DNA of 60,363 nucleotides from Aplysia californica (Eukaryota), in the NCBI RefSeq assembly GCF_000002075.1, contig NW_004797391.1, forward strand, positions 923,674 to 984,036, given 5' to 3'. Below the pieces are notes generated by a model. That model was given only the letters and a program-made list of their open reading frames with translations. It ran no database searches and was not told where the DNA came from. The position numbers were made by a program, and so were the translations under genes. Shown here in pieces: positions 8,401 through 30,000 of the stretch (position 1 is its first letter; the number at the start of each line of letters is the position of its first letter).

Positions 8401-11400
8401 TTGTTTGGAAGAGTGTCAAAAACTGTGCGGGGATGGTATAGTGCTGTTTTAATTGCTGTCATTTCAGCATCATAGTTGTTGCATTCCTCTCTACAGGCTG
8501 CAGAGATCTCATTGGAACTTCCATCTGGGTACTGTGTATTAGTATTTCATATCCGGCTTTGGTTGTGCCTTTGAATGCTGAGCCGTCTGTATAGACGTGT
8601 ATCCAGTCATTTAAATAGCTGTCGATTGATGTGATGCAAACAGCTATTGTCTGTGAAAGATGTTGTAATGATTGGTTTTTCCATAGAAATGTGGGGAGGG
8701 ATGGTTTGGTTGACTCTTTTCGTTTCTCTTCTGTTTTGTGGTAGATGGTGACTCTCCATTAGTTCTGTGATGCGATGGATGATTGATTTTTGTTGAAGTC
8801 GTTTCTTTGGTTTCCATGTTTCTACTAATTTCCAGTTTGAGTGGTTGGGGCACATTCTTAGATTCTTTCAAGGAGCTCCAAAACTGCTTTATCTCTGCGA
8901 ATTCCCAAGGGTTCAACATTTGAAAGAATTTAACATGCGAGGGCCCAAAGAGAAAAACTTTTGTTACGGGTGAAGACTTTTTGAAAAAATAATTATATTT
9001 GGTCGCCGGCTTGCAGAAGTGCCACGCAAAGTTTCGTGGGCATAGGTAAATTCCTCAATGAGCTAGAATTTTTTTAACGCAATCAGATGAAAGTGAACAA
9101 GCTATAAGCGATCATAAAGGGCAAAAGAACTGAAAGAATAACATAGCATAAAATGTATGACCAGAATTTCTTTGGTTTTTGAAAGTGATTAATCCAGCCT
9201 TTTTGCAAGACAGTCTGTCTGGGAAAGCCAGCTCTTTTTCCATTTTCAATCACAAAGATATCATGAGTAATGTGTGCACTGCACCTCACGAGTCTTGGGC
9301 CCTATTCTGAGAGCAAACACAATCAACTAAAAAGGGACCAGCAGTGACAAAAACCTGAGGGAAAAACCCAAAGTTCTCTACACACAATGCTTGCATGGAC
9401 CCAAGATTGAAAAAGGCATGTTGGCACGACAGACAATATTGACAAACAGAGAATCATGATAGAAAAACTAGAGATTAAAAAAAAAAGCACACAGCATGAC
9501 ACTACTAACCTTTGCTTCAGCAATGAATGTGTTGGACCTTACAACATCCAAGGTGGTCACACCAAACACTCTATTCTTGTCGTACACACCACGAAGCTTC
9601 AACACCTCAGAGGCGATGGGCACGGTGGAGTTCACCTGAAGACAATGACAAAGAACACTTTACTATCTCTACCCTGGAGCCAGTGAACATTTGGCATTGA
9701 AAATGTGACATACAGGCTCAAAAGAGTTTTTAAAAATGTACTGGTCACTGAGCTAACTCACAGGGTTGGTGATGATGCCAATCATAGCTTTTGGGCAGTT
9801 CTGTGCACATGAATCAATCAGATTGGCCACAATGCTGGCATTTGTGTTGAACAAGTCATCACGGGTCATACCTGTAAGCAGAGAACAAGATTGAGTAGAA
9901 AAAAGTTATAATGCATCTTTTGTTTAAGCAACTAGATCACCACAATTGTTGAAACATTATTGCACAATGTCAGAGTAAAAGTAGGACATCTGACAACAAT
10001 CCTTGGACAAGCACTAAAGCCAAACATGAACATGAAAATAAAAGAACCTCTTGAGAAACTATACAAACAGATATTTCCATAATTCCATGCCTTTGACTTC
10101 ACAGGCCCAATGTTCATTGTATGCCTTGAGACAAGAAGGAGACGCATCATGAAAAAGTTCACACTCACCTTGTTGGGAATTTCTTGGGTGTCATCTACAC
10201 TAACCTTTTTGTTTTCTTTACCCAGAGTCATAAACTTAGGTTGACTATTAAATGATGTGTCAGATTTTATAAAAACAAACAAGGAAGAGGCTAAAAGACT
10301 AACCAGGTTTCCTGGGTACTCCAGCAGGTATAAGCACCAAGTCAGCATCTTTAACGCAATCTGCCAGTTGCTCATCTCCCATGTGGCCAGTCACTTTTGG
10401 TCGAGTCTCAATATGGCTGAGGTCAGCAGCCACTCCAGGTGTGTGAGCAATGTCATAGAGGGAGAGGTGTGAAATGAGAGGTGACTGTTTCAACAGGAGG
10501 GACAGGGGCTGGCCAATTCCACCAGCAGCTCCCAACACTGCTACTTTGCTGTCATTCTGAAAAAGGCCGGGCAGTTCTTTAAAAACGTGTCAAAATCAGA
10601 ACATTTGGCTCATTATATTAGTGATAATTAAATGAGTTCATTCACGTGGTAGAGCAAGTTTCTTCTGTTAAATATTAAAAAACATGCAGTGTGAAAAAGG
10701 GTCAACAATTAAGATTTACAAACCCCATACAGTCTGAAAGACAAAACTCTTTATATTCACTAGTAATATTAGTATTACTATTGCATTAAATTTTCCTTAT
10801 TTGAATCTATAATTTTCCAAACACCCATTGATCCTTAGCTTTATTTCGTAAGACATCAATCCTTGACCTTGATCAACATGTGATTATCCAACTTTTGAAC
10901 AATCAATAGATGCTCTGCTTGTTGTAGATTAAAAAACCCCAACCCATCAGCAATAGCATCTGCAAAGCAATATCAAGACGAATCAAGAGTTTTCACGAAT
11001 CAGTAAACTTATTAAGCCACTTTCACTATCATCAAATAACTGATGTGACAAGCTTGTTTCACTTCGGACCTTTAAGGACCTCCCGAGGAGTTTGCATGTG
11101 TTATTTTATCTTTAAAAAAAAAAAGCGGAAAAAGTGTGCATGAGAAGTAAGACGTCCCCACAAAGGCTGCAAAGGCAACCAGTATCCCCTCAGTCGTAGT
11201 ATAGTCGACTATCTTTCTACCTGCTATCAGATAGTCACCTTGCTGAGCAAGATTTCAGAATAATACATTACATGTAATTGGGACATTATCTAGATAAAGA
11301 TAATGCACTCTTGTTCTATTTTTAAAAGTCATAGCGTAGGAATATTCCCTGTTTTGTCACAGAACGTTTTATTGAAAACATGCAGATATAATATATATAT

Positions 11401-14400
11401 ATATATAATAAAATATATATATATATATATAATAAAATATATATACATATATATTTAATAATAATAATAAAATAAATATATATTAGTAGCGTTTTCATCA
11501 TAATAGAAGTAGTTTTCAAGCTTACAAGTACAAGCATGTATTATCTACAAAAAAGTTTAGGAAAGAACAAAGATTCGCATAGATTAGGATACAGACAGTT
11601 GTAGTTTAGGCAAGCAGATATTAATGAAAGTCGGGAGAGAGAAAAAAAAAAAAAAAAAAAAAAATTTTCTTCTCTTTCTAAACCTATTCTAAAGATTGGT
11701 CTGGAAGTGGAAGGTTTCCAAAATCTTCTTCCCATGTCCTGGCTTCATCACCCCCCACCCCTTCCGGGGTTCAAACTGGGACTATGTTAAAATAATCCAC
11801 GAACAAGAAATTACAGGAAAATTGTCTAAGGTGTTAGATCACAGCGTGCTCTCCAGTTTCCATTTTAGAAGATCATACCGGTACAATTCAAGACTCAGGT
11901 CATAAATAAAGCTGGGGGTGATCTGATGTCATTAACAGACAATAGCAGGCAATTCAACTCCAAGACCTGAGCAAGTAGCAGCCGAAAAAGTGACACAAGC
12001 AACGTAAAAACAAATTTTTGGAACAATACTTTAATAAAGTAAAGGTAACTTTTCAATAAAAGTTACTCAAGCAAAAAAAGTAATGCAGAAATAATGTGAT
12101 TCAATCTCAAGCAATGACTGAATAATGAACAATGAAACTTTTTAAAACTTTACAAACCATTGACCTTTGCCTGAGTTAGTGTCGACCGCATCAGCAGTCA
12201 TCAGTATCATAATAATTATAATAGTAAATAGCATTACGGCTCCTTTTTACCGCTTGAAGGTCAGCTTGCACCAACACAGAGAAAGGATGTAATCACATTG
12301 TTGTAAGGGAAATAATCTTCGAAGGGACGATCTTAAAAACTGGCACCCAAATCACTTTTGGAAATGGATTACAAAATCATTTCAAAAGTGCTAGATCTAC
12401 GCCTCCAGAGCATTATGGCTAATATAATCAGCCATCACCAATCAGGTTTTCTGAAGGGAAGATCAATTGCAGAACATACAGAACTCTTGATGATGCTATT
12501 TTTAGCTCCTTAGAATACGACATCCCGAAAATGGCAGTCTCCTTAGACTTTCAACGCGCGCAAGACAGGAGGAGGTTGGAGTAAAAAACAGTGACAAACA
12601 AACAGCGAAGCATCTTTATATTGATTGCAAAAATGAGTGTTAGTAACATGGGGTATGGAGATGTAAAGTGTATTTTCATATTGTTTGATATCGAATTTGA
12701 ACACAGGAAAAAGTTTCTGTCATGTTTAATATCATATATTGCTCGCTTATTTTATGGCTATTCAAAGCAAAAACACAATGCACATCTGTAACAACTTATC
12801 CCTATTATAATTTATTTTCCAGGTGCCTTCGGCAACCTTATTTCCATATCTCTATTCACGTTCTTGTTTAAAGAAGATGTACCAAGGGTTCATCGATAGC
12901 TCATGTGATGGGGAGAACATTAATTAGTTTTGATATGCTGCTTGCAGCACTGCACAAATAATCTGAACGAAAGGAAAAGGTAATGGGTTTTAGTTACATA
13001 GTTTTATGCTATTGTATTATAATACTTCCTCGTTTTCCATTGCTCTCACTTTTTTTTCTCTATCTCTACATCTCCCTCTCTCTTCCCTGCTCTCCAATCC
13101 CCTTATTTCTCTCTGTCTCGGTACGGCTGTCTATCTATCTGTTTACTTTACCATCTCAAGCCTTATACAGACCTGCCATTCTATGAAATCTAAAAATGAG
13201 GGTCTTTGGAAAAAAAATCGGGACCAACGACAAATCACCAGGGTGACTGCCAAGCCGACTTTAAAATTTACCATGGGTGTCCAAAAATATATGAAGGCAT
13301 AGTTTTAAGAAAAATCTGGAGCAACAGAAGGGACAAAAAAATCAGGACACATGCGATCGACATCGGGATGTTTGAGGTTTTTTTTGGGGGGGGGGGGGGG
13401 AATCAGGACATCCAGATTAACTCGCGATGAGTGGCACATCTGCCTATATCTTTATATCACCAGTAAGTTAAACAAAAAATGGATTCTTTAGCTATTTATA
13501 TATCGATATTTACAATTACTTGAGTTTCTTATACTTTAAAATACATTTTAAAAATGTTTTTAACACAGGTTATATTGCATAATCCCCCAAAATGCGTAAG
13601 AAAATTTGTTTTCCAAGTAAACATTGCGGATGGTTTCTCTTGTACATTCATTAAGTCGACCCAATCACATTGCGTACTAAAATTTAGGTCATTCACTCCG
13701 CTCTCTAGTAGTGGCGGGTGGTGTGCATGAATATCTAGAACATGTGTAAATAAAGCGAAGCTGAAGCTTTGTGAATCCACAACCTTTCGTTTTCTCGGAC
13801 AGTAAACTTCTATCGCTTTTTTCTGCCCAGCGCAAACCTAGATCTATTTCTTGAAAATTCTTGTTAATTAAAGGCGGTGGTGAATTCGTTTTGAAGATAA
13901 ATATAAACACTTTGAAGCTGTTCTTTTGTCTTTGCTGCTTTTTAAAGTTGGTCAGTGAGTAGCGAATGTGCTGTCAGGTCGTCTCGAAGCGTAAACCTGT
14001 CTATTTGAAGTAGAAACAGAGGGAAACTTTAAAGCTGTTGTTTTTTTTTTAGCCTTGCCTTACGAAATCACCAACATCTAAAAAGCTACTTCAGTTTTCT
14101 TAAAAATTCAAAAAGCATATTTTTCACAATGCGTCATTTGGTACCTTTCACCAGGCACACACACATATATTCATTGCTTGCCACTAAGCCTCTCCACTCC
14201 CACCCCCCCCTCTAGTCTAGTCATTTCTATCTATCAAAAACACATCTAGCCAGCATTTACATATTATTGACTTGTTAAATGTAGGAATTGCTTCCAAACG
14301 TTAGCATTGGAAATATACCACACTTGATTTGGAAGTTTGAGGTTGCTCCCCCCGAGGTGATGGGATACAATATTATTATCGAATCTGAATACGAGGATGC

Positions 14401-17400
14401 TTTGTCAGAATCTCCGAAAGTTTGAAAGGACGCGAAAAGAATATTCAGGGTAAATGGTCAGGGAGCAGAAAGCTGTATTTTTTAAGTTCATTATCTGTTT
14501 GTCAACTTGCTACCTACAACCCGCTTACGAATTACCACTATACTGTCTTCCTACTCAGCTCCTATCGACACTTGTCTTGGCCCGATAGAATAGGTTAACA
14601 CTAACAATGTCACCTTAGCAGAGACTGGGCCAACCATTTCCAAACTCACGGTGACACTAAAGATGGTTCCAGTAGGAAATGGGATAGAGGCTGCCCACAT
14701 CCCTCATTAGGGCAGAGGAAGATAGGACTAATGTTAACATTACTTAAACGCAATCCCACATCATCATCACCATTATTTCTAAAATTATCATTGCTCTCAG
14801 ATCAATGACTTACATCCTTGAAGCTTTATCTGCAACAGTTACTTGTCATAGTAAGTATGCACGTAAATAGTAATACACTATTTGACACTATCATCACACG
14901 CACTTTTTTCTACTAATATCATACGGCGTCAATCTCATATAATAAATGAGTAATGGATTTACTTTTATAAGTAAATAGCATCTGTCATAGCATCCCCGCT
15001 CGAGGGCAAGCTCTCACACCTTAGAAAACTCAAAAACTTTGTTGCCTTCCTAGGAAGCATGCAGTATAAGCAGCTGGTTATGGCTATGCACTCAAACGCA
15101 AAACAAACTGACAAGACCTTTTGCTATCTACTGGCTGGTACCCATTCCCACCTGATTGAAGTGAGGAAAATTCTAATAAAGTGACTTTCCCAAGGACACA
15201 ACATCGGGCCCCCCAAGGGATTCGGACCAACGACCTTATGGTTGCGAGTTTGAGAGCTAAAGACGCCACTTGATATAAGAAAAAAAAATAGTTAAAAATA
15301 AAGCAACAACTGAACGGAAACCAAACTCAAGTTACCCATGGGCCGATGCAGGTAGAGTCTGGTAGAGTCTGAGCCAGATAGAGTATTGCACAATAAACAA
15401 AAAAAGATTTTTAAGTATGTCAAAAGTACAGTTAACTAAATCTTCTCAATCTTTACCTTATTAATTCAGTTCAGAACATGAACTGAACCTTTCTACAGAA
15501 CACAGGCTTCTTACCTACTCCTTGCTCCAAGGAACCTGGTAGTTCTCTCTCCTTTACATTTGGCTCAAAGAAGGGCTGCACCGATGCTAAATTTTGATGT
15601 CAGGTGGGGACTGCAAGATATTTTCCTACAGGCCTCAAATTAGTTCGCAAGTCGGTGGGCTTTTTTTTTTCTGCTTACACAACTTACAGTAGGTAGACTT
15701 ACTATGAACATCTATAAATTAATAAAAAGAAATTTGATTCCCACTTAAGTTTCAGTCGAAATCAGAAAAAAACTCATTTGACTGAAAAAATGACAAGGAT
15801 TCAGGGCTCCCCATTACGCACAAAAGTGCATACACATTAAACCTGCAGATTACCCCCTTAAAGTTTTGGTGGTGTGTGACCTTTACCCTTTGTAATTTCA
15901 TTTCGGGGGTTGTATACGCTTTAAAACGTAGGTGGTGAGTGTCTAACAAACATTTTCCCCCTTCTCTATGCCGAAGCCGAGTCAATGATTTGACAACACA
16001 ACCACACACATGCACGACAGTCACCTTCTGTGTCAGAAAAAGTCGACTATTTGACTTATTTATCAGCACAGAAGCTCCACCCACACTCTGGTGGCTCACA
16101 TTTCCCAGTATCGAGCCTTCAGTTTACCACTGTGAGATTACCCCCATCCTTCTTTAACACCCTAGTAAACATGAATTGTGTAAAACTAAAACACCTGGAC
16201 TAGGAGAGCTTGACGTGATACTTCAGGATTAAAAAAGAAATAATGATAAAACACACACACATGCGTGCGTTCACACACACACATACACCATACATACGCG
16301 CGCGCGCAGAGGGAATATACATGGATATAATAATGGAAACCCCTGGAAATTATTTAAGTCAGCTTGGCAGTGACCTAAGAGATTTGTTGTTGAACAAAAG
16401 GTTGAAAAAGGTTGAACTCTAATTCTAGTCAATATTACACATTTATTTCTTTTAAGTTAATTAAAAAATCGTTAACATTCAATCATAGTCATGGTCACTC
16501 TGTGTGTGTCTGTGTGAACGTGAATGTGAGTTAAATGTTTACAAGCACAAAATCTTACTATAAAATTATTATTATGAGATATTAACTTTTACCCTTTAAG
16601 TTTCTAAAACAAGAGTTTAGAAAATACCCCTTAAGATAGTAAACCAAAGGGTGAAGGAACCTCTTAAGTTGGCCTGAAAACGGGAGCCCTGTGGATTGCC
16701 AAACATTTTTTTTTTCAAAATAATTCTAATAATACTAAACAAAAGAGTATACATTATTATTTTTAGTTTTATGAAGGCGAAGGGCTTATGTTCTTTCTGC
16801 CAATGGCTAGGAACGAAATAAGCAGAGAATAAATGAGCAGCATGCCTGCCTGCGCTAATAACCTTGAAGGGATCATTTGATTTTATGGAACCTGTACTCT
16901 GTGCATCCTAAAATAGTAGCAACATTCACAAATGGAATGATCTAATCCATCCTGTGGACATTACACATAACCATCAATCCGGTTTCTTGATGTAATGGGA
17001 GGGTGGCCAGATTTTCCTTCACGAGAGGAGCAAAGGAGGAGTTCTGCAGAGGGCCGGTACTTACCGTGACAAGGTCACTGAGCAAACATGTACAAAAGTT
17101 TGGGTAGGGGTTAGGAGCTGGTCGGCTGGCTCTCTGACCCTGCGGAACTCTTTCCGAAGCAAAAGCTTCTATTTTTGCACAATTTGATCACTCTCCCAAA
17201 TCAAAGAGGTCTGATTTCTTCTGAGTCACATCATTTCCAGTTTGAGTTTGATGAAATCATGGCCAACAACCAATTAGTATATTAACGAAGTGTATACAGA
17301 CCCGGTAACCGGGAACCAAGTCACGAAGTATACAGACCCGGTAGGGGAACTCTTTTGTGATTTCGGAAAGTTTNNNNNNNNNNNNNNNNNNNNNNNNNNN

Positions 17401-19055
17401 NNNNNNNNNNNNNNNNNNNNNNNNNNNNNNNNNNNNNNNNNNNNNNNNNNNNNNNNNNNNNNNNNNNNNNNNNNNNNNNNNNNNNNNNNNNNNNNNNNNN
17501 NNNNNNNNNNNNNNNNNNNNNNNNNNNNNNNNNNNNNNNNNNNNNNNNNNNCTGCTCGATTGAAATTATGACATTGTTCTTTTCTTCAAATTGTGATTCC
17601 TCCAACTCCAAAACGGAGGAAGAACAATCGTTCATCGAAAAGACATCCGCAATCTTCATTTAGATCTAGATCTAATCTACATCTAGATCTAGATCTAGGC
17701 TAGCCTCGAAACTAGATCAATGATTTATAATGTCTGTCTATCTAGATCTAGACCTGGGCCATAGATCTAGAAGAACCTAGGTCTTCAATGAGCCAACAGG
17801 CGCTGAAACTTTCCGAAATCACAAAAGAGTTCCCCTACCGGGTCTGTATACTTTGTGACTTTGTTCCCGGTTACCGGGTCTGTATACACTCCCATATATT
17901 AAATCTACTCCACATTGGGTAGGATTTCCGTAACAATTACAAGCAACCACCCAAACAAACACAATAAAGAAGGGATCTAGATCTAGAATCTAGACCAGAC
18001 CCCACCCCTAACTCTTGCAGTCTCACTCTCTTCTCCTATACCTTCTCCATTTCAGTGGTTGCTCGATTCGGAATTCTTCCCCCACATTGCCTGCACTCAG
18101 ATAAACAATGCCATTTTATACTACGGCTTCGGCTGGCCTGAACTTCAGGGTCAAATCAATTAAAAGCAGAGGTCAATTTAATGGGCAATGGCCAGTACCA
18201 TACAGACCTGGCTGCATTTGGTCAATAGAATTAGAATAGGCAACTGGTTCTTAGCCTCTGCTCAAATTAACCAGATCTAGATCTAGATCTAAGCCTGTAT
18301 TGTATCACAAAAAGAAAAGAAAACTCTTAATTTATCAGCCATTTAAATAAAATTTTGAAACATGGCATAGAAGATGAAGGGCAATTAGTTGGCCTAGATC
18401 TAGAAATCTTTCTAGATTCTAGATCTAGATTAGAAATCTAGACGAACGCTTTCAATGAACGGTCTGTTCAGTGAAGGCTGAAACCGCCAAACCTTTATCA
18501 AGATCTCTGGTACTGGTACTACAACTACTTAGGAAAAAAGCCTTGACCTGACACTAATCCTAAAACTAAATGGCCCAAAGTCACAAGTGGCAGTGAGGTC
18601 ACAAAAAAAAACAGTTGAGCCTGGAGTGGAATAAATAGCGGATCTCAAGTGTGAAAAAGGACGTTTCCACCACCTTCATCTTGTTTTAAGTCAAGATGTA
18701 GATTCTAAATTCAACTAATGGCGTTATAATAGCCTAATGAACATCAATAACTAAGAACAAGTCATAAAGAAATCTAGATCTAGTAACGGGGTGAATAAGG
18801 CTACAGTTACCACTGCCTCAGGCTGAAATTACACATCTCAAGACAAATTTTGGTTGTACTGGTGTCATGCAAATCGTTGGAAGACCTTGAAAAAATGAGC
18901 ACGCACCAGACGAGTGAGGGCATTGTTTCAGCAAGACTGAATTAATATTGCGCAAAATTGTTATTCACATCATAAAGCATCACCTTAGAAGAAGTCGAAA
19001 AGTGCTTCCTTGCGACAAAAATAATTTGAGAGGGTCTTGCAAGTCTGGAAAACAT
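2492..19055 (-). CDS. MDH2: Malate dehydrogenase 2, mitochondrial (8 coding exons, 342 aa)
   Basis: Exons on the minus strand, all GT-AG with consistent phases: 19055-18984 ([24 protein letters not shown], Arg/Ser-rich presequence); 10556-10304 ([23 protein letters not shown]...[13 protein letters not shown]-binding Gly motif); 9871-9762 ([15 protein letters not shown]...IITNP); 9635-9510 ([11 protein letters not shown]...[17 protein letters not shown]); 7321-7217 ([26 protein letters not shown]..., catalytic His); 5263-5192 ([24 protein letters not shown]); 4620-4468 ([14 protein letters not shown]...PVLLG); 2629-2492 (KNGVEKNLG...FVAKQFKK*). Total 1029 nt. Confidence 0.97.
2695..2935 (-). 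mobile_element. Copy of the same retroposon in MDH2 intron 7
   Basis: Reverse-complement similarity to ~28330-28570 (GTAAAACCTCTACT 3' end; TCATTTTCCTCTACTTCTTTTGTAT core). Confidence 0.75.
3656..4142. mobile_element. TTAA-flanked MITE (piggyBac-type) in MDH2 intron 7
   Basis: TTAA(A)CTCACTGACTAC...GTAGTCAGAGAG|TTAA. Confidence 0.65.
5725..6165. repeat. Degenerate ~55-60-bp tandem repeat in MDH2 intron 5 (continues at 7114-7205)
   Basis: Consensus about CATGTGTACCCATTTTGTGCCTGCAGATCACATGTACTCACTATGAACCCACTGACCA, roughly 8 copies here plus ~1.5 beyond the insertion. Confidence 0.85.
6178..7113. mobile_element. Element related to the 27.2 kb MITE, with a nested 125-bp hAT-like MITE (6729-6853)
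   Basis: CTGTCCCT...AGGGACAG ends and subterminal AATTATGC repeats. The nested element reads CAGGGTGCCCATTGGGGGA...TCCTCCAATGGGCACCCCG. Confidence 0.55.
8075..8900 (-). mobile_element. LINE fragment (RNase H region), same family as the 34.5-36.8 kb element, in MDH2 intron 4
   Basis: [18 protein letters not shown] (~8555-8608) and [21 protein letters not shown] (ORF 8069-8362), with stops and frameshifts. Confidence 0.85.
12290..12600 (+). mobile_element. Decayed L1/Tx1-type reverse transcriptase fragment in MDH2 intron 1
   Basis: Reads [45 protein letters not shown]...VSLDFQ across frameshifts. Confidence 0.7.
15085..15270 (-). mobile_element. tRNA-derived SINE
   Basis: B-box-like GGTCCGAATCCC, followed by the core TTGTGTCCTTGGGAAAGTCACTT...CCTCACT...CAGGTG.GAATGGGTACC. 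Confidence 0.7.
17286..17893. mobile_element. Mutator-like MITE with long TIRs in MDH2 intron 1
   Basis: Near-perfect inverted repeats of at least 85 bp (17286-17373, cut by an N gap / 17806-17893), with a 9-bp TSD GTATATTAA / ATATATTAA (8/9). Confidence 0.8.
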
Positions 19056-19482
19056 TTTTTTAAATCCTAAGAAACAGTCGACCTCAGTCTACCGGTAGGT
19101 TTGGTCTTGATGAAACACAGGAAGTGATTGTATGACCTGACCTTACACGGCAAATCATGCGCACTCGATTGTATATATCAATCCGCTCTTGACAACCTCA
19201 ACTTTTTAAAAACATAAGTAATAGTATCAGATGTTAAATATGTGTAATTTTTACCAAGAAAATTATAAAAACTCCCTGATTTTAAGATTTCAATGCGAGT
19301 AAATCAAAGTGCCTATGGTATTCTTCAATGATATTTAACAAACTAGGCCCACGTGAATGGACATTTGTTTATAATATGAGTGATACGCCAAACTTCCTGT
19401 TAATCCCCTGCACAGCACTAAGATAGTCTCATGTTTAAACGTCAAAAGAGATAATAAAGACAAAACGCTAGAACACGTCAGG
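19056..19482. promoter_or_regulatory. Bidirectional promoter and 5' UTRs shared by MDH2 and STYXL1
   Basis: 427 bp lie between the divergent ATGs. They contain oppositely oriented ETS-type motifs CAGGAAGTG (19118-19126) and AACTTCCTGT (19391-19400), plus overlapping TGACCT half-sites (19133-19145). Confidence 0.75.
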
Positions 19483-20968
19483 ATGGAGGGTTTAGAGCTC
19501 ATAGAACCGAACGCTTTGTATAATATGCTCCAGCAAGGCACACAGTATTCAGGCCTGAGCGATACAAATTATCTTTTACTGATTGGTAAGTTTAACCTCA
19601 GCGCTGACCATGCCATAGATTAAAAAAAAAAAAATCTTGTAAAACAATAACAACATATAAACGTTTCATCCAGTATCTTAGAACCAAAGATCTTTCTTAA
19701 AAAGAGGATTTTCAAAAACTGATGTCATTGTACCTCATTTTTTAGTTTACGTTTGTGTGTCCTCCTTCTTCTTCTTAATATTATATTAGCAATTAAGTTA
19801 CTATACTAGTTTAACTCATTCGCTACATATTGTTTTCGGCTTGTGGACAAATTTTTCTCGGGAGGGCGAAATGAGATGATGACTAGTGCGCAGTTCACTG
19901 GTCTTTGGGGCCTCAAATTAAAATAAACATCATAATATACCAAAATTTACTGCAGGCCTATTGTTTGTAGATTACATTTGTAATGTTTTATATTTGTGTG
20001 TTTTTCAACTTTGGTTCCTGTAAGAGGCGATTATGCAACACAATTTTGCTTGGATGGGGATAAAATTAAAAAAAAAAAGAAATCTTTGGTGAAACTCAAG
20101 AAATATGTTTGCGCCAAGGGAAATGATACATCAGAATAACCATAAATGAATATATTATAGATCTGGAAAATATTGAAAAATTTGAAGTTATTAAAAACCA
20201 CATAACTTCCATAAAATTCGTACATTTGGATCATAACATCCGATATTTTTAAAAACAAAATATTTTTTGGCTGTAATCTTGAAAAAAGGACAATAAGATA
20301 CATTCACAAACAGAAAAAAACACTTGTAGCTATCTTACATGGGTTATATTATTCAGAATTGTATATCTGGAATAAACCTAGATCTATATGTCTTCAGGTA
20401 CTTTTTGTGTAATTTCACCAAAAAATAGGTCTATAGGAGAAAAAAATATTTTGACAATTTAGATTTAGGCCTATAAAAAAAAATCTTCTAGCACTCAAAA
20501 ATATTGATTTCTCAATAACAGTAGAGCACTGACAATTTAGAATTGATTCCATAGTAAAGAAGAATCCTACATTTCTTTAGTGAGCAAAATAAGGATACAT
20601 TTTATTGTGTAAAAGTATTAAGAAGCTGGTGTCTGGGCTATGATTTGGGCATCGCGATAAAACAAAGTCGCATAAACTACGAAATCGCGTTTGAAAAATG
20701 AATCGACACTTCCGATTTTCGGTGGAAACGCTTGACCTGGAAGTCAATGTTATATTATAACCTTTATTTTAACATGGATTTGTGGATTGGAATAAAATCT
20801 AAGCTAAAATTATAGATCGGTTCTCGAGCGGTTGGGGGCGGCTTGCCAAAGTGATGTCACTTTCGCCAAGCCATTCGGCGTAGCAAATGAGTTAATTCCT
20901 ACCTATTTAACTAAAGGCTTTTAACTTATTTGGTTTGTCAAATTTAATCTGTTCTCTCAGTCCCTCCA

Positions 20969-21032
<64 letters not shown>

Positions 21033-24000
21033 CTCTCTCTCTTATAGCTCTCTCCCTCTGTCTCTAGCTCTCATGTTGCAGTTCTTTCCACTCTCCTATT
21101 TTCATCTTAATAAACCCCTTTCTCGCCACTTTATTGTTTTAATATATGTGTACCATATACCATTAAGCTCTTTAATTATAAATTATAAGAGGATAGGTCA
21201 GAGTATAATGATAGATGCTGACTTGTGGGGTCCATTCCTAATGGCTCTCCATCTTCTATACAGAGGTACAGATAATTAAGACTCCTGTAAATTTGCCAGT
21301 CTTTTATTGCTGCACCAAGCCCACACTTTCACATTGCACTTTTGATATGATATCTGATCAATGGTCAGCGTTTTATTGGGATATATGGGCAAAAAGGTAT
21401 GCCTTTTACCTCTTCACTGCCAATCATTTCACATGGCAGCTGAGTTAAGTTTTTACAAAAATGAATATTCTTTGAAATTTGCTTGGGGGGGGGGGGGGGG
21501 TATAAGGAGCTGACTGAACAGAACAGTAGAGGAATTGTGTACAGTTGAACTTAGAGGATAGGGGACCACTGGTTGTCAAGGAGAAGTTGCCATCTTAGTG
21601 GTCTGCTTGCACAATGTCATTAATATTGCAACATTTTAAAAATGCAAGGGGGGAATTGGAAGTGATTGTTTGTTCAGGTGGTTTTTTCGGTCAAGTGGTC
21701 GTTAGAGCAGGTTCATCTGAAATTACATCATCATCATTGCCTTTTTCGCCCTGCACCAGGGTATAAGGTCACAGACAAACACTTTCCACCTTTCTCTATA
21801 TTATCCTGGGGTAGCCTCTTGATGTTATTCTATGTCTTCCCACTTTTCTGTACATCAATTTCTGTGATTCTTCATCAGGGTTCATGTGTTCTTCCCCTTG
21901 ATCTTTTAATCTGAAATTAAAGTGGAAACAAAAATAATTGCGTTTTAGAAGACAAAAAAAGTGAATAATAATGATAATTGCATTTATGTAGTGCATATCC
22001 ATGCTCTATGCCATGCCTACGGTGCTTTTACAACTGCAACTAAATAAATGCCAGTTGTGCTGTACTTTTTACATCGGATGTATGGAGAGGTAATTCTTTT
22101 TTAACAAAACAGAGAAGAGTATTTCACAAATCCTTTTCTACCAAAACTTCTTTATAAGTTTATTTATTAATCAAATATTATCAGACTTTCATTGCTTTTC
22201 CTGTCAAAGCTTTGGAGTCTTCTTTAGGGCCACCTGCGGGTGAGATTTTCCCCATTTTTCCCCAGTTTGACCATACAGTTTTTCCTCTCCATTTTTGAAA
22301 CCTACATCCATTTTAATCAAAGTTTCGAGCATCTGCCTCAATTAATTATGTTTCAAAGTCGTTTAAAAATCGGTAAAAAAAAATATTTGGCAATTTTTGG
22401 TCGTGTTTTTAAATATTTTCTTCATTTTTTTCAAATATTTATTTTTACGACTTTAAATTTAATCTTTTCTTTTATTTTTCATCTGAATAGCTTCATTATT
22501 TTACAAAATGTACATCCATTGGAGACCTGTACTGAAATAAAGCCTTTTTAGAAGATAATCTGATTAAAATTACAATCACTGTTTTTGTTGGAAATTTTGA
22601 GATTTTTTTGCTCTTCATCTATGTACACATTTCCAGAGTCTATAATTATTTTCTTAATCATAATATTACAAATCTGGCGTTATTTGTTCATTACATAGGT
22701 GTTGCAGTTTGTACTTGCTAAAAATAAAAGCCAACGGACAAAACATAAGAGAGAAGATAGCTTTTGAAATTTGATGAAATTATCCAATATGGCGGATGTT
22801 TGCTTGGTTACCTTGGTAACCATACCATATGCTTATAATAATAAATAATTACTTCAATTAACTCTTTAATGTCTGACTAATATGAATATATCATCTTTGC
22901 TACATATAGTCAAGGGATATGGTTTTTAGAAATTCCACCAGCAGATGGCCTTAAAGCTACAAAATAAAATGAGAAGCTGTGATACATATCAAAGAAATAG
23001 CTTGTAGATTCTAGTTCATATGATTCTCCTGATTTATAATTTTTTAAATTTTAAAATATTTTACACCCCATTTTCTACTTGGGATGAAAAGGGCGTGGGA
23101 TGATCAGGTGGCCAGCTTTGCCTTCACAGAAGACAAAGGTTTGTAGTAATTACAGCCTAGTTTGTTTGCAGTTTAGTCTGTCTTTCTGAAAGGGACAGTA
23201 AACTTTGTTTTCAATCAAAATCTAAATGATTGGATGTAACAGCTGGAAAATAATATGTGTCACGACTCAGTGGAATCAGGCGCTCTTCAATTTTTGGACA
23301 AGTGGAGTTTTGGTATATTTTTAAAAGCTTGTTCATTTGTCTTGCTTTAGGTGAAAAAAGTACTCATCCATTATGAATAGAAGTCCAAGTATCTGTGATT
23401 GAAGTGGGGGTTGCCTAGTTTCTGAGGTAAAATTAGCGAGAAAATGGCCACCAAAGCTTGGCGACTTCCAAAGCTTGAGAGTCTTTAAAAACTTCAAATT
23501 TACATTTTTGTACCTTAAATCCATATTTTTCAGTAAAATCCACACAGAAATATGTTTTTAAATGGACCTTGAAGGTCTTGAGTCAAAATACAAAAAATTT
23601 GATAAAAATTGCCAAATGGAGAGAAAAGGACAGTTTTTCTATTTCATTATTTTGACAAGCACCTGATTTCACCATGATGCCTCACATATGTGCAAAGACT
23701 GTAACTGTAAGAATTATACCACCTTGTCACTGGAGGGAAAGACATGAAAAATGGGAAAACAGCATCAGAAGATCATAGATCAGATGGCCATTGAGCTGAT
23801 GGTCATAAAATTTGATAACTGATTTCAGTGGCCAATATGTATTGGGCTTCTTTTAACTTGAATGGCTCATTTTTGTCTGACAGTGTGTGAATTTTTTCTT
23901 TGCAATGCAAAAGCATATTTTATTTAGAGTGCAACAGTTGCAGAATACATAACTCGAGGTGTGAGCAAGTTTAATCCAAGGATCTACCATCTCTGAAGAA

Positions 24001-27000
24001 GGTTGAGCTCCCTACCCAATCTCCCTGTATTCTCCATACCCTATGTTAATTTATTAATAACTTTTCTACCTTTCCAGTAGAATAAACAACATTGTGGCTT
24101 TGATTTATGGCTCTCATCTAACTTGTAAACAATAAGTCTTTTATTGATACATAGCTCCACTTCTATTCACAGATGCTCGAAGGAAACATGAATACAACGA
24201 AAGTCATATCGTGACTTCTAAAAAGGCACCAAAGGTAATAAGAATTGAGTTGTGTACAGAACATTTCTAATAGAGCTCTGAATTGTATTCACATCTCAGT
24301 ATTATAGTGAATTTTTAAATTTCTTTTTAATCGATAAGAGGGAATAGGGAGGTGGGTGTTTGTAGGCTTTCATCTTTCTTGTATAGTGTATAAGGCACAT
24401 TGTCATTACTAGTGTTTGTTATGTAATGTGTCGGCACTCTGCTGCTGCACACAAAGGATGTGAGTTTGATTCCATTGTGTAGAAGTATTATATTGAATAG
24501 GCTATACTTTCTTTCTGCTGGTATGCTGTACATCACTCAGTCTGGGATGGCCCTGACTGGCAGGGTCAAAGCAGCTCACCACTTAAATGATCTTGTGTCA
24601 GTGGTGGTTTGAATATTTACAAGCCATCCATCACTCTTGTCATTGTGCTCGAAAGCTCATCTAGGCTACACAGCTCAACTGAGAAGTAGTAAAGCCGATC
24701 AGAACAAGCCTCGGTAAAACATTTTCNNNNNNNNNNNNNNNNNNNNNNNNNNNNNNNNNNNNNNNNNNNNNNNNNNNNNNNNNNNNNNNNNNNNNNNNNN
24801 NNNNNNNNNNNNNNNNNNNNNNNNNNNNNNNNNNNNNNNNNNNNNNNNNNNNNNNNNNNNNNNNNNNNNNNNNNNNNNNNNNNNNNNNNNNNNNNNNNNN
24901 NNNNNNNNNNNNNNNNNNNNNNNNNNNNNNNNNNNNNNNNNNNNNNNNNNNNNNNNNNNNNNNNNNNNNNNNNNNNNNCCTTTGTGTTGCTTTTTGTGTC
25001 TGAATTCATATATTAATTATTTTTATGTATTACCAAACAATATTTGTTACTGGATTCTAGATTAGCGTTTTGATTTTTAAAATAATGCAATGAACTGTGT
25101 GACATCATTACCTGAGAAACCATGAAACTGTCGTTGCTGCAGTACTTGAGGGAAAAGCTTGTTTACCCAAGACAGCCCACTTCTCTTTTTGAGACGTAAA
25201 ATTTAAAGAAAAATTCCTGTCCTCAATACTCAAGGTACCTGTATTTTCAGGGAAAGACATATCTTGTAAACAGAGAGTGGAAGCAAAATTTTATTCTAGA
25301 ACTTCTATTTGAGAAATATAAGGAATATTTCCGCTAGCGACAATTGGGACAGTTGAACTATTGTGCATGGATTACAGTTGATGCTTTTTCTAGTGTTAAT
25401 CTTTGCTGATGGACAGCTTTGACCATAAGATTTGTCATTTATTAATTCACATAGCATACAGAGAATTAAAACGGGCTGTCGATGGATGCTCTGGTGTGGT
25501 TTACTCCTTTTTTCCATCAAACATCTGTTGTCCTGATCTCTCCTTCTTTTTTGTGTTTGTTACTCTGATGTAAAACCTCCAATCTTCGGCACTTATAATA
25601 TATAACCTTATTGTGTCGCAAGTGCCGTAAAACTCTTACTAAAACTAGAAAGAGAATTAAAAACTATTTTGTCAAATTGTGAAACAATGATATAGATAGT
25701 GTGTGTATGCTACAGTACCTGTATTTTTATACATTTGTGGAACTTGGCTCCAAAAGCTGTGTTCTAAAGTTGTCTGTATGAACTTCAAGATAAATTCCTC
25801 TGGCTGAAAAAAATATAAATTTAGAACATCTACCCTGCTCCTGTGCTCTCTAAGTTCAAAATGTCTATTTTATTCCAGTGCTTTATGTTGGGAACATCTT
25901 CCATGCGGCTGTGCGAAATATTCCAGCTGTATTTCAAACGGTGATAGGATGATGGTATTAGTATTCTAAATGTATCCTTTTTTTTGTTTCACAGAGTGAA
26001 AATGACTTGTTCATGATTCCGTATGATGCAGAACTGGAATGCAAACAGAATATTGTGGTGTATGACAGCAACACATCAACAATTCCTTTCCACTCATATT
26101 GTAAGTATATACAGCAACAAATGAGAAATTCCTCTCCATTCCATCATATTGTGAAGGGTTCTTTTTCTTCATTTCAGTTTCAATAGGAACAACTGTTAAC
26201 TGTNNNNNNNNNNNNNNNNNNNNNNNNNNNNNNNNNNNNNNNNNNNNNNNNNNNNNNNNNNNNNNNNNNNNNNNNNNNNNNNNNNNNNNNNNNNNNNNNN
26301 NNNNNNNNNNNNNNNNNNNNNNNNNNNNNNNNNNNNNNNNNNNNNNNNNNNNNNNNNNNNNNNNNNNNNNNNNNNNNNNNNNNNNNNNNNNNNNNNNNNN
26401 NNNNNNNNNNNNNNNNNNNNNNNNNNNNNNNNNNNNNNNNNNNCAGGTTCCTATACATAATATCTGATTGAATGTTTGGATATATATTTTCAAAATAGTT
26501 TAAAAACATACTTTTATTTTTTTCTGTTTCAATTAGAGCATAAAATGCTTCCTCAATTTCTTCTGATTCAGCTAACTCTTGTAACATAATGTAATAAATA
26601 TTGGTGTCATTCTTTGGTATTGTAAATTGTGTCTATTCTCCTCAGCCCCTGCAATTGACTGTGCCAAATTGTTTTGGGACATGGGAAGTCGAGACACAGT
26701 TAAAATCTTAAAAGGTAAGTGCTATAAAACTATAGAAGTGGGATTTGACATTGCCTTTCATTGTCATGAACATAATAATTTGACTTCTTTCATTTTTTTT
26801 CTTGTTGAAAAATGTTGAACTGTTAATCAGAAATCTTTCTTTCCTTGTCCAGTCTTATGTTACACACCTACCTTTGGTTAAGTTACCTTGTACGAGTTCT
26901 TTTCACTATTTGTTTTCCATGAACATATTTGCTGACATGGTCTGTAACTTGAGTATAACAAAACCCAAAAGAACTTCTGCCTCTTGCACTAAGAAAATTT

Positions 27001-30000
27001 TAAACTGGGCATGACCACTGAACTTGTTCGGTGGGTGGAGGAAGGTAAGGGCATTGAACGCGTTGAAAGTCTTATATAATTTTAATTTAGTTTTATATAT
27101 GAATTTTCTTTTTTTTACAAGAAACAAATTAATGCCTGCTTTTCTTTGAATTTCTATCCATTTACTTTCTTTCTCCCAATATTTATTCTCCTGAGTTATT
27201 ATAGGCTCGCTCTTGGACTCTTCATTGGACTGTCCCCGTCGTTTTATGCAAGAAAAATTCTGAAATTATGCAAACTGAGCCCAAAAATGTGAAATTATGC
27301 GATTCTGTTAATTTTAACAAAGAATGATAAAGGAAAATAATCAGAAATTATGCAAAAAATGATCAAATTTTGCTAAATTATGCGGGGTGCATAAAACCAC
27401 GGGGACAGATTGGATATTATACAAGTCAGGCACTGGTAACATGCATACAGAAAACTTTTAATCACGGAAGCTTAGCTTGTACAATTTTCCATTCCCTGAC
27501 TGAACCGCTATATATTCTTTGTATTAGCATCATTGATTTCTCACTTAAACACCCATATGGATATGTCGAATAGCTGGTCTTGAAAAATCAAATTAAATTT
27601 TTCCTCGCATTCAAATTGCTGTGCAAGCACAAAGCAAAACGACACACTCATTGTCCTTGAGTATGATACACACACTACTGTCACTACTGATTCTGAGATG
27701 CTTCACCACACATTACTTGTTGTGCCCATAAAGCGCAGGACTTTCCTTCAATCTGGTCAAGTGAGGGTGAATGTTTGATGGTGAGGTATGATCGAAGACA
27801 GACAGTGTAATGCTGCATTGGGCAGTATGGTGTGTGAATTATGTTTGCATTTGTGTGCATGTATGTGCATATATGTGTGTGTGGTTGTTGGAACATGAAA
27901 GTAAGCCCTGTGGATTGGGAAGTGATTACACAAGAGGGGTGGGTAGTGTGCTTTGACTAGTATTGGTTACATTGTCATGACTGTTATCTGAAGCAAGAAC
28001 GTTTTTAGATGTGTTTTGTTTTGTTATAAAGATCAGCAGCATCACTCTTTCTTTTCTTTTGGTATGACACTGAACAATACAAAGCGCTGGTATTAAGGCG
28101 CATCATCGCACTTTACCTGTAAAGTAATGTGTGTAAGTTGTAAAGCATTAGAAACTTCCTTGATGAATCTAAGACAGACATTGTGGCAGCCCCCGGGGCA
28201 GTGCCACTGACTGTAGTGTCTTTAGGCCATTCCCAAAGGGGGGGACATTTCTCGTTCAAGCACAGTAGAATTGTAAATGGGCTGATTCATGTCACGCTCA
28301 TATCTGTGCCTGATCTACAACTGGGAACTGCTGCTTTTTCTTTCCTGATTCTTACTATTGTCATTTTCCTCTACTTCTTTTGTATGTTTGTCACTCTCTT
28401 GTGACCTGCTATTTTGGGGTGCCTTGATAGTCAAAGCAGACCTTGTGCTGTTGAAGCTAGAGAGGTGAGCAGTCTAAGTCTGATTCCCTGTAAAGTCTTC
28501 TCTGTTGACACCCACCCCTTGGCGTTTATATGACCTTATGCAGTTGCGAGCGTAGTAAAACCCTCTACTGTAAAAAAAAAAAAAAAGACATTGTGACACT
28601 GCATTGGGCCATATGGTGAGTCAGTTATGTTTGTGTTTGTGTACATGTATATATATGTGTTTGGTTATTTAAAAGTGAAGGTATGGATCAGAAAGTGATT
28701 AAACGAGATGAATTGTTGATGTGTTCTGACCAGTATTGGTTACATCGTCATGATCGTGATCTGTTGGAAGAACTATTGTTTTTCAAAAGTCAGATATAGG
28801 TTATCCAAATCTCATCAACATCACCCCTCTTCTCTTCTCTCGCTTCCACCCTAAACAAAGAGCGCTCACTATCCATCTGGGTACTTTTCATTATTTATGG
28901 CAGTTATATTTTCAATTATATTGTCACAATTACTTCCCTTGATTTTCTTCAATATTTTTCATTAATGTGTTTACTCAAATTATGGATTTGTCGAATATAT
29001 TTGTCAATCTGCGATGTGTTCAAGATATACATGCTCAACTGCATTGGTTTAGAAATAGAAGAGAATCATCCTATGGTTCAACCTTAGAGAATGACGTGGT
29101 ACAGATTAGTTAAAGGTAACTGTTCTTGTGAAGTGTATTCCAGCGCAACTTTATTTTTTACCCAGGAGGCTATGAAGAATTTTCTGCCCTGTATCCATTC
29201 CTGAGAACGCAAAAAATCTTGTTCACGCCAAGGGTAAGTCTTATTGTACATTGATGTGAATGTAATAAGAAAATTTTCAATTCGTTACTACATCCCAGCA
29301 TTTTATCTTTTAAGAAGAAATGCTTATGTTTTTTCACAATTTAGAAATATATTTCCTATTTCTCCTTTGTTTCCACCTTTCAGTCTGTTTCTTTGTCAAT
29401 ATGCTTATTGTCTGTTCAACTCTGCCTCTCTTGCTGTTTCTTGCTCCATATTTCAATCTGTACATATCAAAGAAATTAACCCTGGCTGTGCCGCGGATGA
29501 GTATTCTAGCAAAACAGGCTTCCACCCACATGCCATTAACGAATATTCCGACATTCAACCTCTTTGTAGCATAACTGATGAGTATTCTTACTTTCAGCCT
29601 CTTTGCCGATAAAGAAAAACAACTTTATTTTACTCCAAACCTAGTTTCTAGATAGGGGTTAGGCGTTATGTATTATGGGAGAGGTGAAGGAGTCATTATT
29701 TTTCCTGAATACTCTTTAACGTTTTGTCAGCAATTCCATTTCTGATTATTTTCCTGAGTAGATCCAATAAAATGTAACCAAAATAACACTGCCCTGCGTA
29801 GGAGGGCAGATGACAACTATAATGCCCAGCACTGAATGAGTTAAGTAAATTTGAACATTACTTGTGCATAGTAAAAAGTGTTAATTGCAATGTACAAGAG
29901 GACCAGGAATATGCCCATCCTTTTAGTAAGGTTTCCCTTGTGAGTGGAATTATTTACAATTGTGATATCTTCAGAAAGGAAAAAGTCACACCATTTGTTC

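What the first reader, a model, noticed from the sequence alone, without database searches (positions are those of the whole stretch)
18984..19585. MDH2-STYXL1 head-to-head pair apparently conserved between an invertebrate and human
Seen: the two start codons are 427 bp apart on opposite strands, although both genes have multi-kb, transposon-filled introns. Known: human MDH2 and STYXL1 are also head-to-head (7q11.23), and MK-STYX has been linked to mitochondria (PTPMT1 interaction, apoptosis). Inference: if this genome is a mollusc, the pair predates the protostome-deuterostome split and is held together by a shared promoter. That would suggest co-regulation of a TCA enzyme with a pseudophosphatase.
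Basis: partly seen in the sequence, partly recalled or inferred. Interest (0 to 1): 0.7.

Follow-up and report, generated by a model that had tools for sequence, protein, structure and literature searches.

The report
Ancient back-to-back MDH2–STYXL1 gene pair
In the sea slug Aplysia, the gene for a mitochondrial enzyme (MDH2) and the gene for an inactive phosphatase that sits in mammalian cilia and sperm tails (STYXL1) start 427 bases apart and face away from each other, as in humans, so they have likely shared one small promoter since before molluscs and vertebrates split; several hundred such ancient pairs are known, and this one likely does not mean the two proteins work together.

Summary
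Observation confirmed. The window is Aplysia californica: the 8-exon MDH2 model is identical to its RefSeq protein. MDH2 (-, ATG 19055) and a 9-exon STYXL1 (+, ATG 19483) start 427 bp apart; spliced contigs of one run end 323 bp apart. The pair is old. Of 15 molluscs and echinoderms with both identifiers, 7 are consecutive and 10 within 3; all 15 share a scaffold. A 2010 table already lists it as divergent in human, mouse, chicken and Ciona. A bilaterian origin is about 90% likely. Orientation outside Aplysia and chordates, and the state in outgroups, are open: the sponge STYXL1's head-to-head partner is annotated as S6 kinase. The proposed meaning is weaker. STYXL1 is a testis-enriched radial-spoke protein that sits with MDH1/MDH1B, not MDH2. 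A compact shared promoter with STYXL1 as passenger fits better than TCA co-regulation. This is one of about 600 known-type ancient pairs and may be in Irimia 2012's list, which I could not read. Interest is modest.

The parts
18984..19055 (-). MDH2 coding exon 1 (ATG at 19055; mitochondrial presequence-like N-terminus)
   Evidence: contig of run X5 spliced at 18984
19056..19092 (-). MDH2 5' UTR, minimum extent (37 nt)
   Evidence: X5 contig 2 ends at 19092; true start site not shown
19093..19415 (.). 323-bp spacer between the assembled 5' ends; likely shared divergent promoter
   Evidence: CpG o/e 0.80 against 0.51 and 0.40 in the two gene bodies
19117..19125 (+). ETS-like 9-mer ACAGGAAGT, 24 bp outside the MDH2 contig end; left arm of a mirror pair
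   Evidence: motif label recalled; noticed after the fact
19392..19400 (-). same 9-mer on the other strand, 15 bp outside the STYXL1 contig end; right arm
   Evidence: the 8-mer core occurs 3 times in 60 kb, 2 of them here
19133..19163 (-). two AGGTCA half-sites (ERR-like) and a TGCGCA (NRF1-like half site) on the MDH2 side; putative only
   Evidence: consensus labels recalled; not corrected for 18 motifs scanned
19416..19482 (+). STYXL1 5' UTR, minimum extent (67 nt)
   Evidence: X5 contig 3 ends at 19416
19483..19585 (+). STYXL1 coding exon 1 (ATG at 19483)
   Evidence: X5 loose end continues into exon 2 at 24173
2492..19055 (-). MDH2 gene: exons 19055-18984, 10556-10304, 9871-9762, 9635-9510, 7321-7217, 5263-5192, 4620-4468, 2629-2492
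   Evidence: model identical to P0033; best PDB hits are mitochondrial MDH
15336..15368 (-). 33-nt in-frame cassette exon in MDH2 intron 1 (11 aa)
   Evidence: X5 loose end maps here with AG/GT flanks
19483..37091 (+). STYXL1 gene: exons 19483-19585, 24173-24234, 25995-26100, 26646-26714, 29166-29233, 31179-31324, 32237-32334, 32967-33079, 36960-37091; 298 aa; F-D replaces the catalytic H-C

Best explanation
MDH2 and STYXL1 sit head-to-head 427 bp apart in Aplysia, and this is likely an arrangement inherited from the bilaterian ancestor, likely kept because both genes draw on one compact promoter region and not because their proteins cooperate. Shown: gene identities, geometry, spliced contigs 323 bp apart, chordate divergent pair (literature). 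Indirect: adjacency in other molluscs and sea urchins. Inferred mechanism: two mirror-image core promoters, each with an ETS-like site, flank a CpG-retaining open spacer kept accessible by the housekeeping MDH2 gene. A break or insertion can fall only in about 0.3 kb without cutting a gene, and there it would disturb both starts, so the pair is locked. STYXL1 would ride on this open chromatin and be raised separately in sperm and motile-ciliated cells. The lock can be released, for example after genome duplication. Confidence: about 0.9 for bilaterian age, 0.6 for this mechanism.
For: Geometry and splicing. 10 of 15 species with identifiers within 3, 7 consecutive, including a bivalve, limpets, abalone, pulmonates and three sea urchins; L. 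variegatus has two copies of the pair, each consecutive. Human, mouse, chicken, Ciona divergent; GO similarity 0. Spacer CpG o/e 0.83 over 602 bp, reached by 17 of 286 windows. Mirror 9-mer next to each contig end. STYXL1 testis-enriched and axonemal. In amphioxus, bidirectional promoters are commonest among ubiquitous promoters and many ancestral ones were lost after genome duplication. In the sponge, STYXL1 is again head-to-head with a neighbour 169 bp away.
Against: No promoter assay, start-site map or tissue series; one run only gave contigs, and three raw-read runs gave 0, 1 and 0 reads. Identifier order does not give orientation, and 5 of 15 species have identifiers 34-1342 apart; one second copy in Diadema antillarum has the genes on different contigs. 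The CpG rise is mild and the motifs were noticed after the fact. In the 2010 table the pair is not listed for teleosts or Xenopus, which appear in other MDH rows. In a published sponge-amphioxus block, the amphioxus STYXL1 match is head-to-head with a gene matched to the sponge gene annotated S6 kinase, not MDH2; unresolved. No annelid, ecdysozoan or cnidarian pair could be compared.
Confidence: 0.6

Rival explanations
1. Functional co-regulation: the shared promoter matches mitochondrial malate dehydrogenase output to STYXL1, either through its mitochondrial PTPMT1/apoptosis role or through energy supply of motile cilia and sperm.
For: MK-STYX binds PTPMT1. Radial spoke 3 holds STYXL1 and an MDH1/MDH1B dimer. 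Conserved pairs are on average more co-expressed than controls. All three human MDH genes have a divergent partner within 300 bp.
Against: Mouse Styxl1 is germ-cell specific in testis and knockouts are viable with sperm defects; MDH2 is ubiquitous (established knowledge). The spoke enzyme is not MDH2. GO similarity 0. No co-expression data seen.
Confidence: 0.15
2. Neutral retention: no shared element; the genes became neighbours once and the gap is simply too small a target for rearrangements in slowly evolving genomes.
For: Slow lineages such as Lottia and amphioxus keep 448-492 of 595 ancient pairs, fast ones 12-54. The pair is not listed for teleosts or Xenopus. BLTP2/hobbit flanks MDH2 in Aplysia but is not among the human neighbours listed, so the wider neighbourhood has shuffled.
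Against: The pair survives in Ciona, which keeps only 54 such pairs. The gap stayed under 0.5 kb while flanking introns average about 2.1 kb. Mirror motif arrangement.
Confidence: 0.2
3. Convergence or mis-inference: the pair formed separately in molluscs and deuterostomes, or the ancestral partner of STYXL1 was S6 kinase and MDH2 arrived more than once.
For: Sponge Em0015g1256a (in the STYXL1 clade) is head-to-head with a gene annotated S6 kinase, and the block is matched in amphioxus with a 441-bp gap.
Against: Independent origin needs repeated events of about 1 in 10,000. The sponge partner spans 5.8 kb against 1.3 and 2.1 kb for its neighbours, so it may be a fused model that includes MDH2 (inference). 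Genes of one ancestral linkage group can be reshuffled locally.
Confidence: 0.05

Closest known systems
STYXL1-MDH2 divergent pair of chordates (Davila Lopez 2010, PMC2871058, Table S5 row 160)
   Same: Same two genes, same divergent orientation, short gap (72 bp in human).
   Different: Listed only for human, mouse, chicken and Ciona; no protostome or echinoderm. Its 72 bp is a gene-boundary distance, not ATG to ATG.
Conserved ancestral microsyntenic pairs, 5'-5' class (Irimia 2012, PMC3514665)
   Same: Unrelated genes, neighbours in four or more lineages, head-to-head, under 1 kb.
   Different: Textbook members (HSPD1-HSPE1, HADHA-HADHB) are functionally matched and strongly co-expressed; this pair joins a housekeeping enzyme to an axonemal protein. 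Whether it is in their Table S2 could not be read.
PRKN-PACRG and MDH1-C2orf86 (WDPCP) pairs
   Same: A ciliary gene shares a short divergent promoter with a broadly expressed gene (PACRG: abstract in search listing; MDH1-C2orf86 253 bp; WDPCP identity and ciliary role recalled).
   Different: MDH1-C2orf86 is listed for vertebrates only; depth of the PACRG pair was not checked.
Ancestral bidirectional promoters of amphioxus (Marletaz 2018, PMC6292497)
   Same: Short divergent promoters enriched for ubiquitous genes, often lost after genome duplication.
   Different: Defined by CAGE; no such data here, and neither gene name was found in its 4 supplement files.

Membership tests
Conserved ancestral microsyntenic pair (CAMP) | Two non-paralogous genes | tested here: met
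   Ldh_1_N/Ldh_1_C against Rhodanese/DSPc (on P0033 and the close relative P0001)
Conserved ancestral microsyntenic pair (CAMP) | At most 4 intervening genes in at least 4 lineages | tested here: met
   Mollusc direct; sea urchins by consecutive accessions; Ciona and amniotes from a published table. The urchin evidence is indirect.
Conserved ancestral microsyntenic pair (CAMP) | 5'-5' orientation kept across lineages | tested here: inconclusive
   Shown in Aplysia, published for four chordates; unknown for the 15 identifier-based species
Conserved ancestral microsyntenic pair (CAMP) | Listed in Irimia 2012 Table S2 | not testable with these tools
   Supplement not held
Bidirectional promoter | Divergent transcript starts under 1 kb apart | tested here: met
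   Spliced contigs end 323 bp apart in run X5; ends are minimum UTRs, one run
Bidirectional promoter | Spacer drives transcription both ways through shared elements | not testable with these tools
   Needs reporter or editing; mirror motif only suggestive
Bidirectional promoter | Correlated expression of the two genes | tested here: inconclusive
   Both present in one run; mouse Styxl1 testis-enriched argues against tight correlation
Genomic regulatory block | A developmental regulator plus a bystander gene holding its enhancers | tested here: not met
   Neither gene is a developmental regulator
STYXL1 / MK-STYX | Rhodanese plus DSP domain | tested here: met
   Named hits of exon 6 are STYXL1 with PF00581+PF00782; full model aligns end to end
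STYXL1 / MK-STYX | Loss of catalytic H-C in the HCX5R motif | tested here: met
   Window model reads F-D-X5-R; none of 39 STYXL1-clade rows has H-C, all 5 outgroup rows do
STYXL1 / MK-STYX | Orthology by tree | tested here: met
   Window model groups with Elysia and Physella STYXL1 (100/99) inside a 36-row clade (100/100) with vertebrate-type rows
STYXL1 / MK-STYX | Radial spoke 3 localisation in the mollusc | not testable with these tools
   Known for mammals only
Mitochondrial MDH2 | Closest to mitochondrial MDH with an N-terminal presequence | tested here: met
   import itself not tested

The most novel reading that the evidence does not exclude
The pair is a relic of an ancient link between malate dehydrogenases and the motile cilium: radial spoke 3 carries STYXL1 beside an MDH1/MDH1B dimer, human MDH1 and MDH2 are each wired head-to-head to a ciliary gene, and the MDH2-STYXL1 promoter has coupled the mitochondrial half of the malate shuttle to spoke assembly in sperm and ciliated cells since the first animals (if the sponge partner is a fused MDH2 model).
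Probability: 0.1. Interest if true: 0.7.

Novelty: new member of a known kind. Interest (0 to 1): 0.3.

Why it matters
It pushes a pair recorded for chordates back to the bilaterian ancestor and adds a short, testable promoter to the set of ancient head-to-head pairs. It is a useful case because the partners look functionally mismatched (housekeeping enzyme, axonemal pseudoenzyme), so it can separate co-regulation from simple lock-in as the reason such pairs last. In practice, edits or variants near the start of either human gene may affect the other. It opens no new class of system.

Tried and rejected
Raw RNA reads: runs X21, X22, X23 gave 0, 1 and 0 reads on the promoter stretch, so no start-site, strand or level evidence; no listed holder was on record as RNA. 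Contig depths (84 and 14.7) were not used to rank expression. Metagenome scan: 18 loci with STYXL1 relatives, none reaching MDH2 (best E 0.079); they are transcripts or short internal fragments, so no test. Outgroups: STYXL1 orthologues were named in Nematostella, Stylophora, Sanderia, Ephydatia, Mnemiopsis and Bolinopsis but no MDH2 identifier from these was among the 120 listed of 416 hits. No arthropod STYXL1 was among the 120 listed of 392 hits or the 10 clusters named; this is not evidence of loss. S6 kinase or NLK near the Aplysia pair: none of 9 Pkinase_C matches lies on this scaffold, and a motif scan of 200 kb each side found one kinase-like ORF about 145 kb beyond the STYXL1 stop, not identified. 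Literature: the listing of 18 of 19 papers naming both genes showed none on deep synteny by title or abstract; further searches; supplements without a hit by gene name: PMC13508932 (2 files), PMC6292497 (4 files), PMC5429095 (12 of 16 files), PMC8809688 (3 files); these may use other identifiers. No X-box (RFX) match in the spacer; 4 FOX-like sites against 1.46 expected is not significant. A heterobranch STYXL1 5' UTR (L001) gave no convincing alignment to the spacer. No complex prediction was run because no binding is claimed. Earlier notes of this scan: nothing found.
Full report
Observation. Eight exons give a 342-aa protein identical to Aplysia californica MDH2 isoform X2 (P0033), and the scaffold length equals that record's (1,518,253 bp). 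Nine exons give a 298-aa STYXL1 with no internal stop and AG/GT at all junctions. It groups with Elysia and Physella STYXL1 and reads F-D where active phosphatases have H-C. One probed exon of each gene matched once in the genome. Introns are 126-8427 bp; retroelement remnants were found in 2 of the 15, from a handful of ORFs tested.

Transcripts. In run X5 (contigs; RNA is the tool's guess) one contig covers 18984-19092 and another 19416-19585, each leaving the genome at the predicted donor; the STYXL1 loose end is the start of exon 2. The assembled ends are 323 bp apart and do not overlap. Contigs cannot fix start sites, and three raw-read runs gave 0, 1 and 0 reads. The first-exon region keeps more CpG (o/e 0.83) than either gene body (0.51, 0.40); 17 of 286 windows reach that value. 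A 9-mer, ACAGGAAGT, stands on opposite strands 24 and 15 bp outside the two contig ends; its 8-mer core occurs 3 times in the window against 2.2 expected, 2 of them here. Its ETS-like label is recalled and it was noticed after scanning 18 motifs, so it is a lead only.

Age of the pair. No animal genomes other than this one could be read, so I compared identifiers of the two proteins in species that appeared in both hit lists. Of 15 species with both identifiers, 7 are consecutive (Solemya velum, Patella caerulea, Candidula, Lymnaea, Bulinus, Lytechinus variegatus in two copies, L. pictus) and 3 more are within 3 (P. vulgata, Haliotis rubra, Strongylocentrotus purpuratus). The other 5 (Pinctada, Liolophura, Antedon, two Diadema) are 34-1342 apart; all 15 have both genes on contigs of identical length, except one second copy in D. 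antillarum. Babylonia and Physella share a contig length but identifiers were not compared. This assumes that identifiers follow gene order, which evidently does not hold for every annotation run, and it gives no orientation. Davila Lopez 2010 (PMC2871058; passages and three supplement rows seen) lists STYL1-MDHM as divergent, 72 bp apart in human, also in mouse, chicken and Ciona, GO similarity 0. Molluscs, sea urchins, a tunicate and amniotes together make a bilaterian origin about 90% likely.

Outgroups are open. STYXL1 orthologues exist in cnidarians, a sponge and ctenophores, but I had no matching MDH2 identifiers. Supplement rows of Kenny 2020 (PMC7385117) place sponge STYXL1 (Em0015g1256a) head-to-head, 169 bp from Em0015g1257a, annotated S6 kinase beta-2-like, and tail-to-tail with NLK; the block is matched in amphioxus, where the STYXL1 match lies 441 bp from the match of 1257a. 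Either 1257a is a fused model containing MDH2 (it spans 5.8 kb, its neighbours 1.3 and 2.1 kb) or the partner differs in sponge and amphioxus. I could not decide; this is the main result against a simple history.

Meaning. The mitochondrial reading rests on MK-STYX binding PTPMT1 (passages of PMC10761714 and PMC8622459). Stronger in vivo evidence points to cilia: mouse Styxl1 is highest in testis among eight tissues, germ-cell specific there, and its loss gives viable but infertile males with flagellar defects (PMC10761714, passages). STYXL1 is a radial spoke 3 protein, and the spoke's dehydrogenase is an MDH1/MDH1B dimer (PMC11779644, passages and one section; PMC12399478, one passage). MDH2 is a ubiquitous matrix enzyme (established knowledge). 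The best reading is therefore a compact divergent promoter that is hard to break, with STYXL1 as a passenger on housekeeping chromatin (0.6); neutral retention 0.2; functional co-regulation 0.15; convergence 0.05. The pair is not listed for teleosts or Xenopus in the 2010 table, which fits release after duplication, as described for amphioxus-era promoters (PMC6292497, passages), or an annotation gap.

Comparison with what is known. Irimia 2012 (PMC3514665; abstract, Results parts 1-2 of 3, Methods seen) defines 595 such unrelated ancient pairs, 54.8% of the human ones head-to-head. This pair appears to meet the rule of four lineages and may well be in their Table S2, which was not available. 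My ten literature searches and four supplement searches by gene name found no statement of the pair in a protostome; the library lacks most subscription papers. Other papers seen as passages only: PMC13508932, PMC4300403, PMC5787515, PMC4175457, PMC7442816.

Verdict. Real, very likely bilaterian in age, a new or unrecognised member of a known class, with a weaker functional story than proposed. Interest 0.3. The bold case, a malate-shuttle link to the radial spoke, is about 10% likely.

Noticed in passing
window 15336-15368 (-): 33-nt in-frame cassette exon in MDH2 intron 1, spliced to exon 1 in run X5; it adds 11 aa at the end of the presequence. The chiton Liolophura has an isoform with 12 unrelated extra residues at the same junction.
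   Followed up: partly
L041-L043 (G000:C121 about 884,000-911,600, +): BLTP2/hobbit exons (PF10344, 8 of 12 ORFs tested from L041-L045) end about 14.6 kb from the MDH2 stop, tail-to-tail. Human BLTP2 lies near NLK on 17q11 (recalled), and NLK flanks STYXL1 in the sponge, hinting at one old neighbourhood.
   Followed up: partly
P0335 (Nematostella STYXL1, XP_001639455): A Nematostella small heat-shock gene has accession XP_001639451, 4 away; HSPB1 is in the human STYXL1-MDH2 locus. Possible older linkage; orthology untested.
   Followed up: no
PMC2871058 Table S5 rows 160, 216, 293: All three human malate dehydrogenase genes have a divergent neighbour within 300 bp: MDH2-STYXL1, MDH1B-FASTKD2, MDH1-C2orf86.
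   Followed up: no
P0195, P0199, P0204, P0207, P0211, P0243 and similar: Unnamed sister family of STYXL1 with rhodanese plus DSP domains, often a long N-terminal extension, and an intact HCX5R motif in the 5 aligned: a likely active relative of the pseudophosphatase.
   Followed up: partly
window 34773-36826 (-) and 8072-8383 (-): Broken non-LTR-type retroelement (RT and RNase H) in STYXL1 intron 8; RNase H remnant in MDH2 intron 4.
   Followed up: no
L020:4559-6715 (+): 719-aa open frame matching P-element-type transposase domains just beyond the window.
   Followed up: no
L026:7845 to L027:1138 (+); L032:1503-1721 (+): A long open frame with a weak P-loop match below cut-off, and a kinase-domain ORF; neither identified.
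   Followed up: no
P0368 (Babylonia areolata): A second, faster-evolving STYXL1 copy on another scaffold than the MDH2-linked copy.
   Followed up: no
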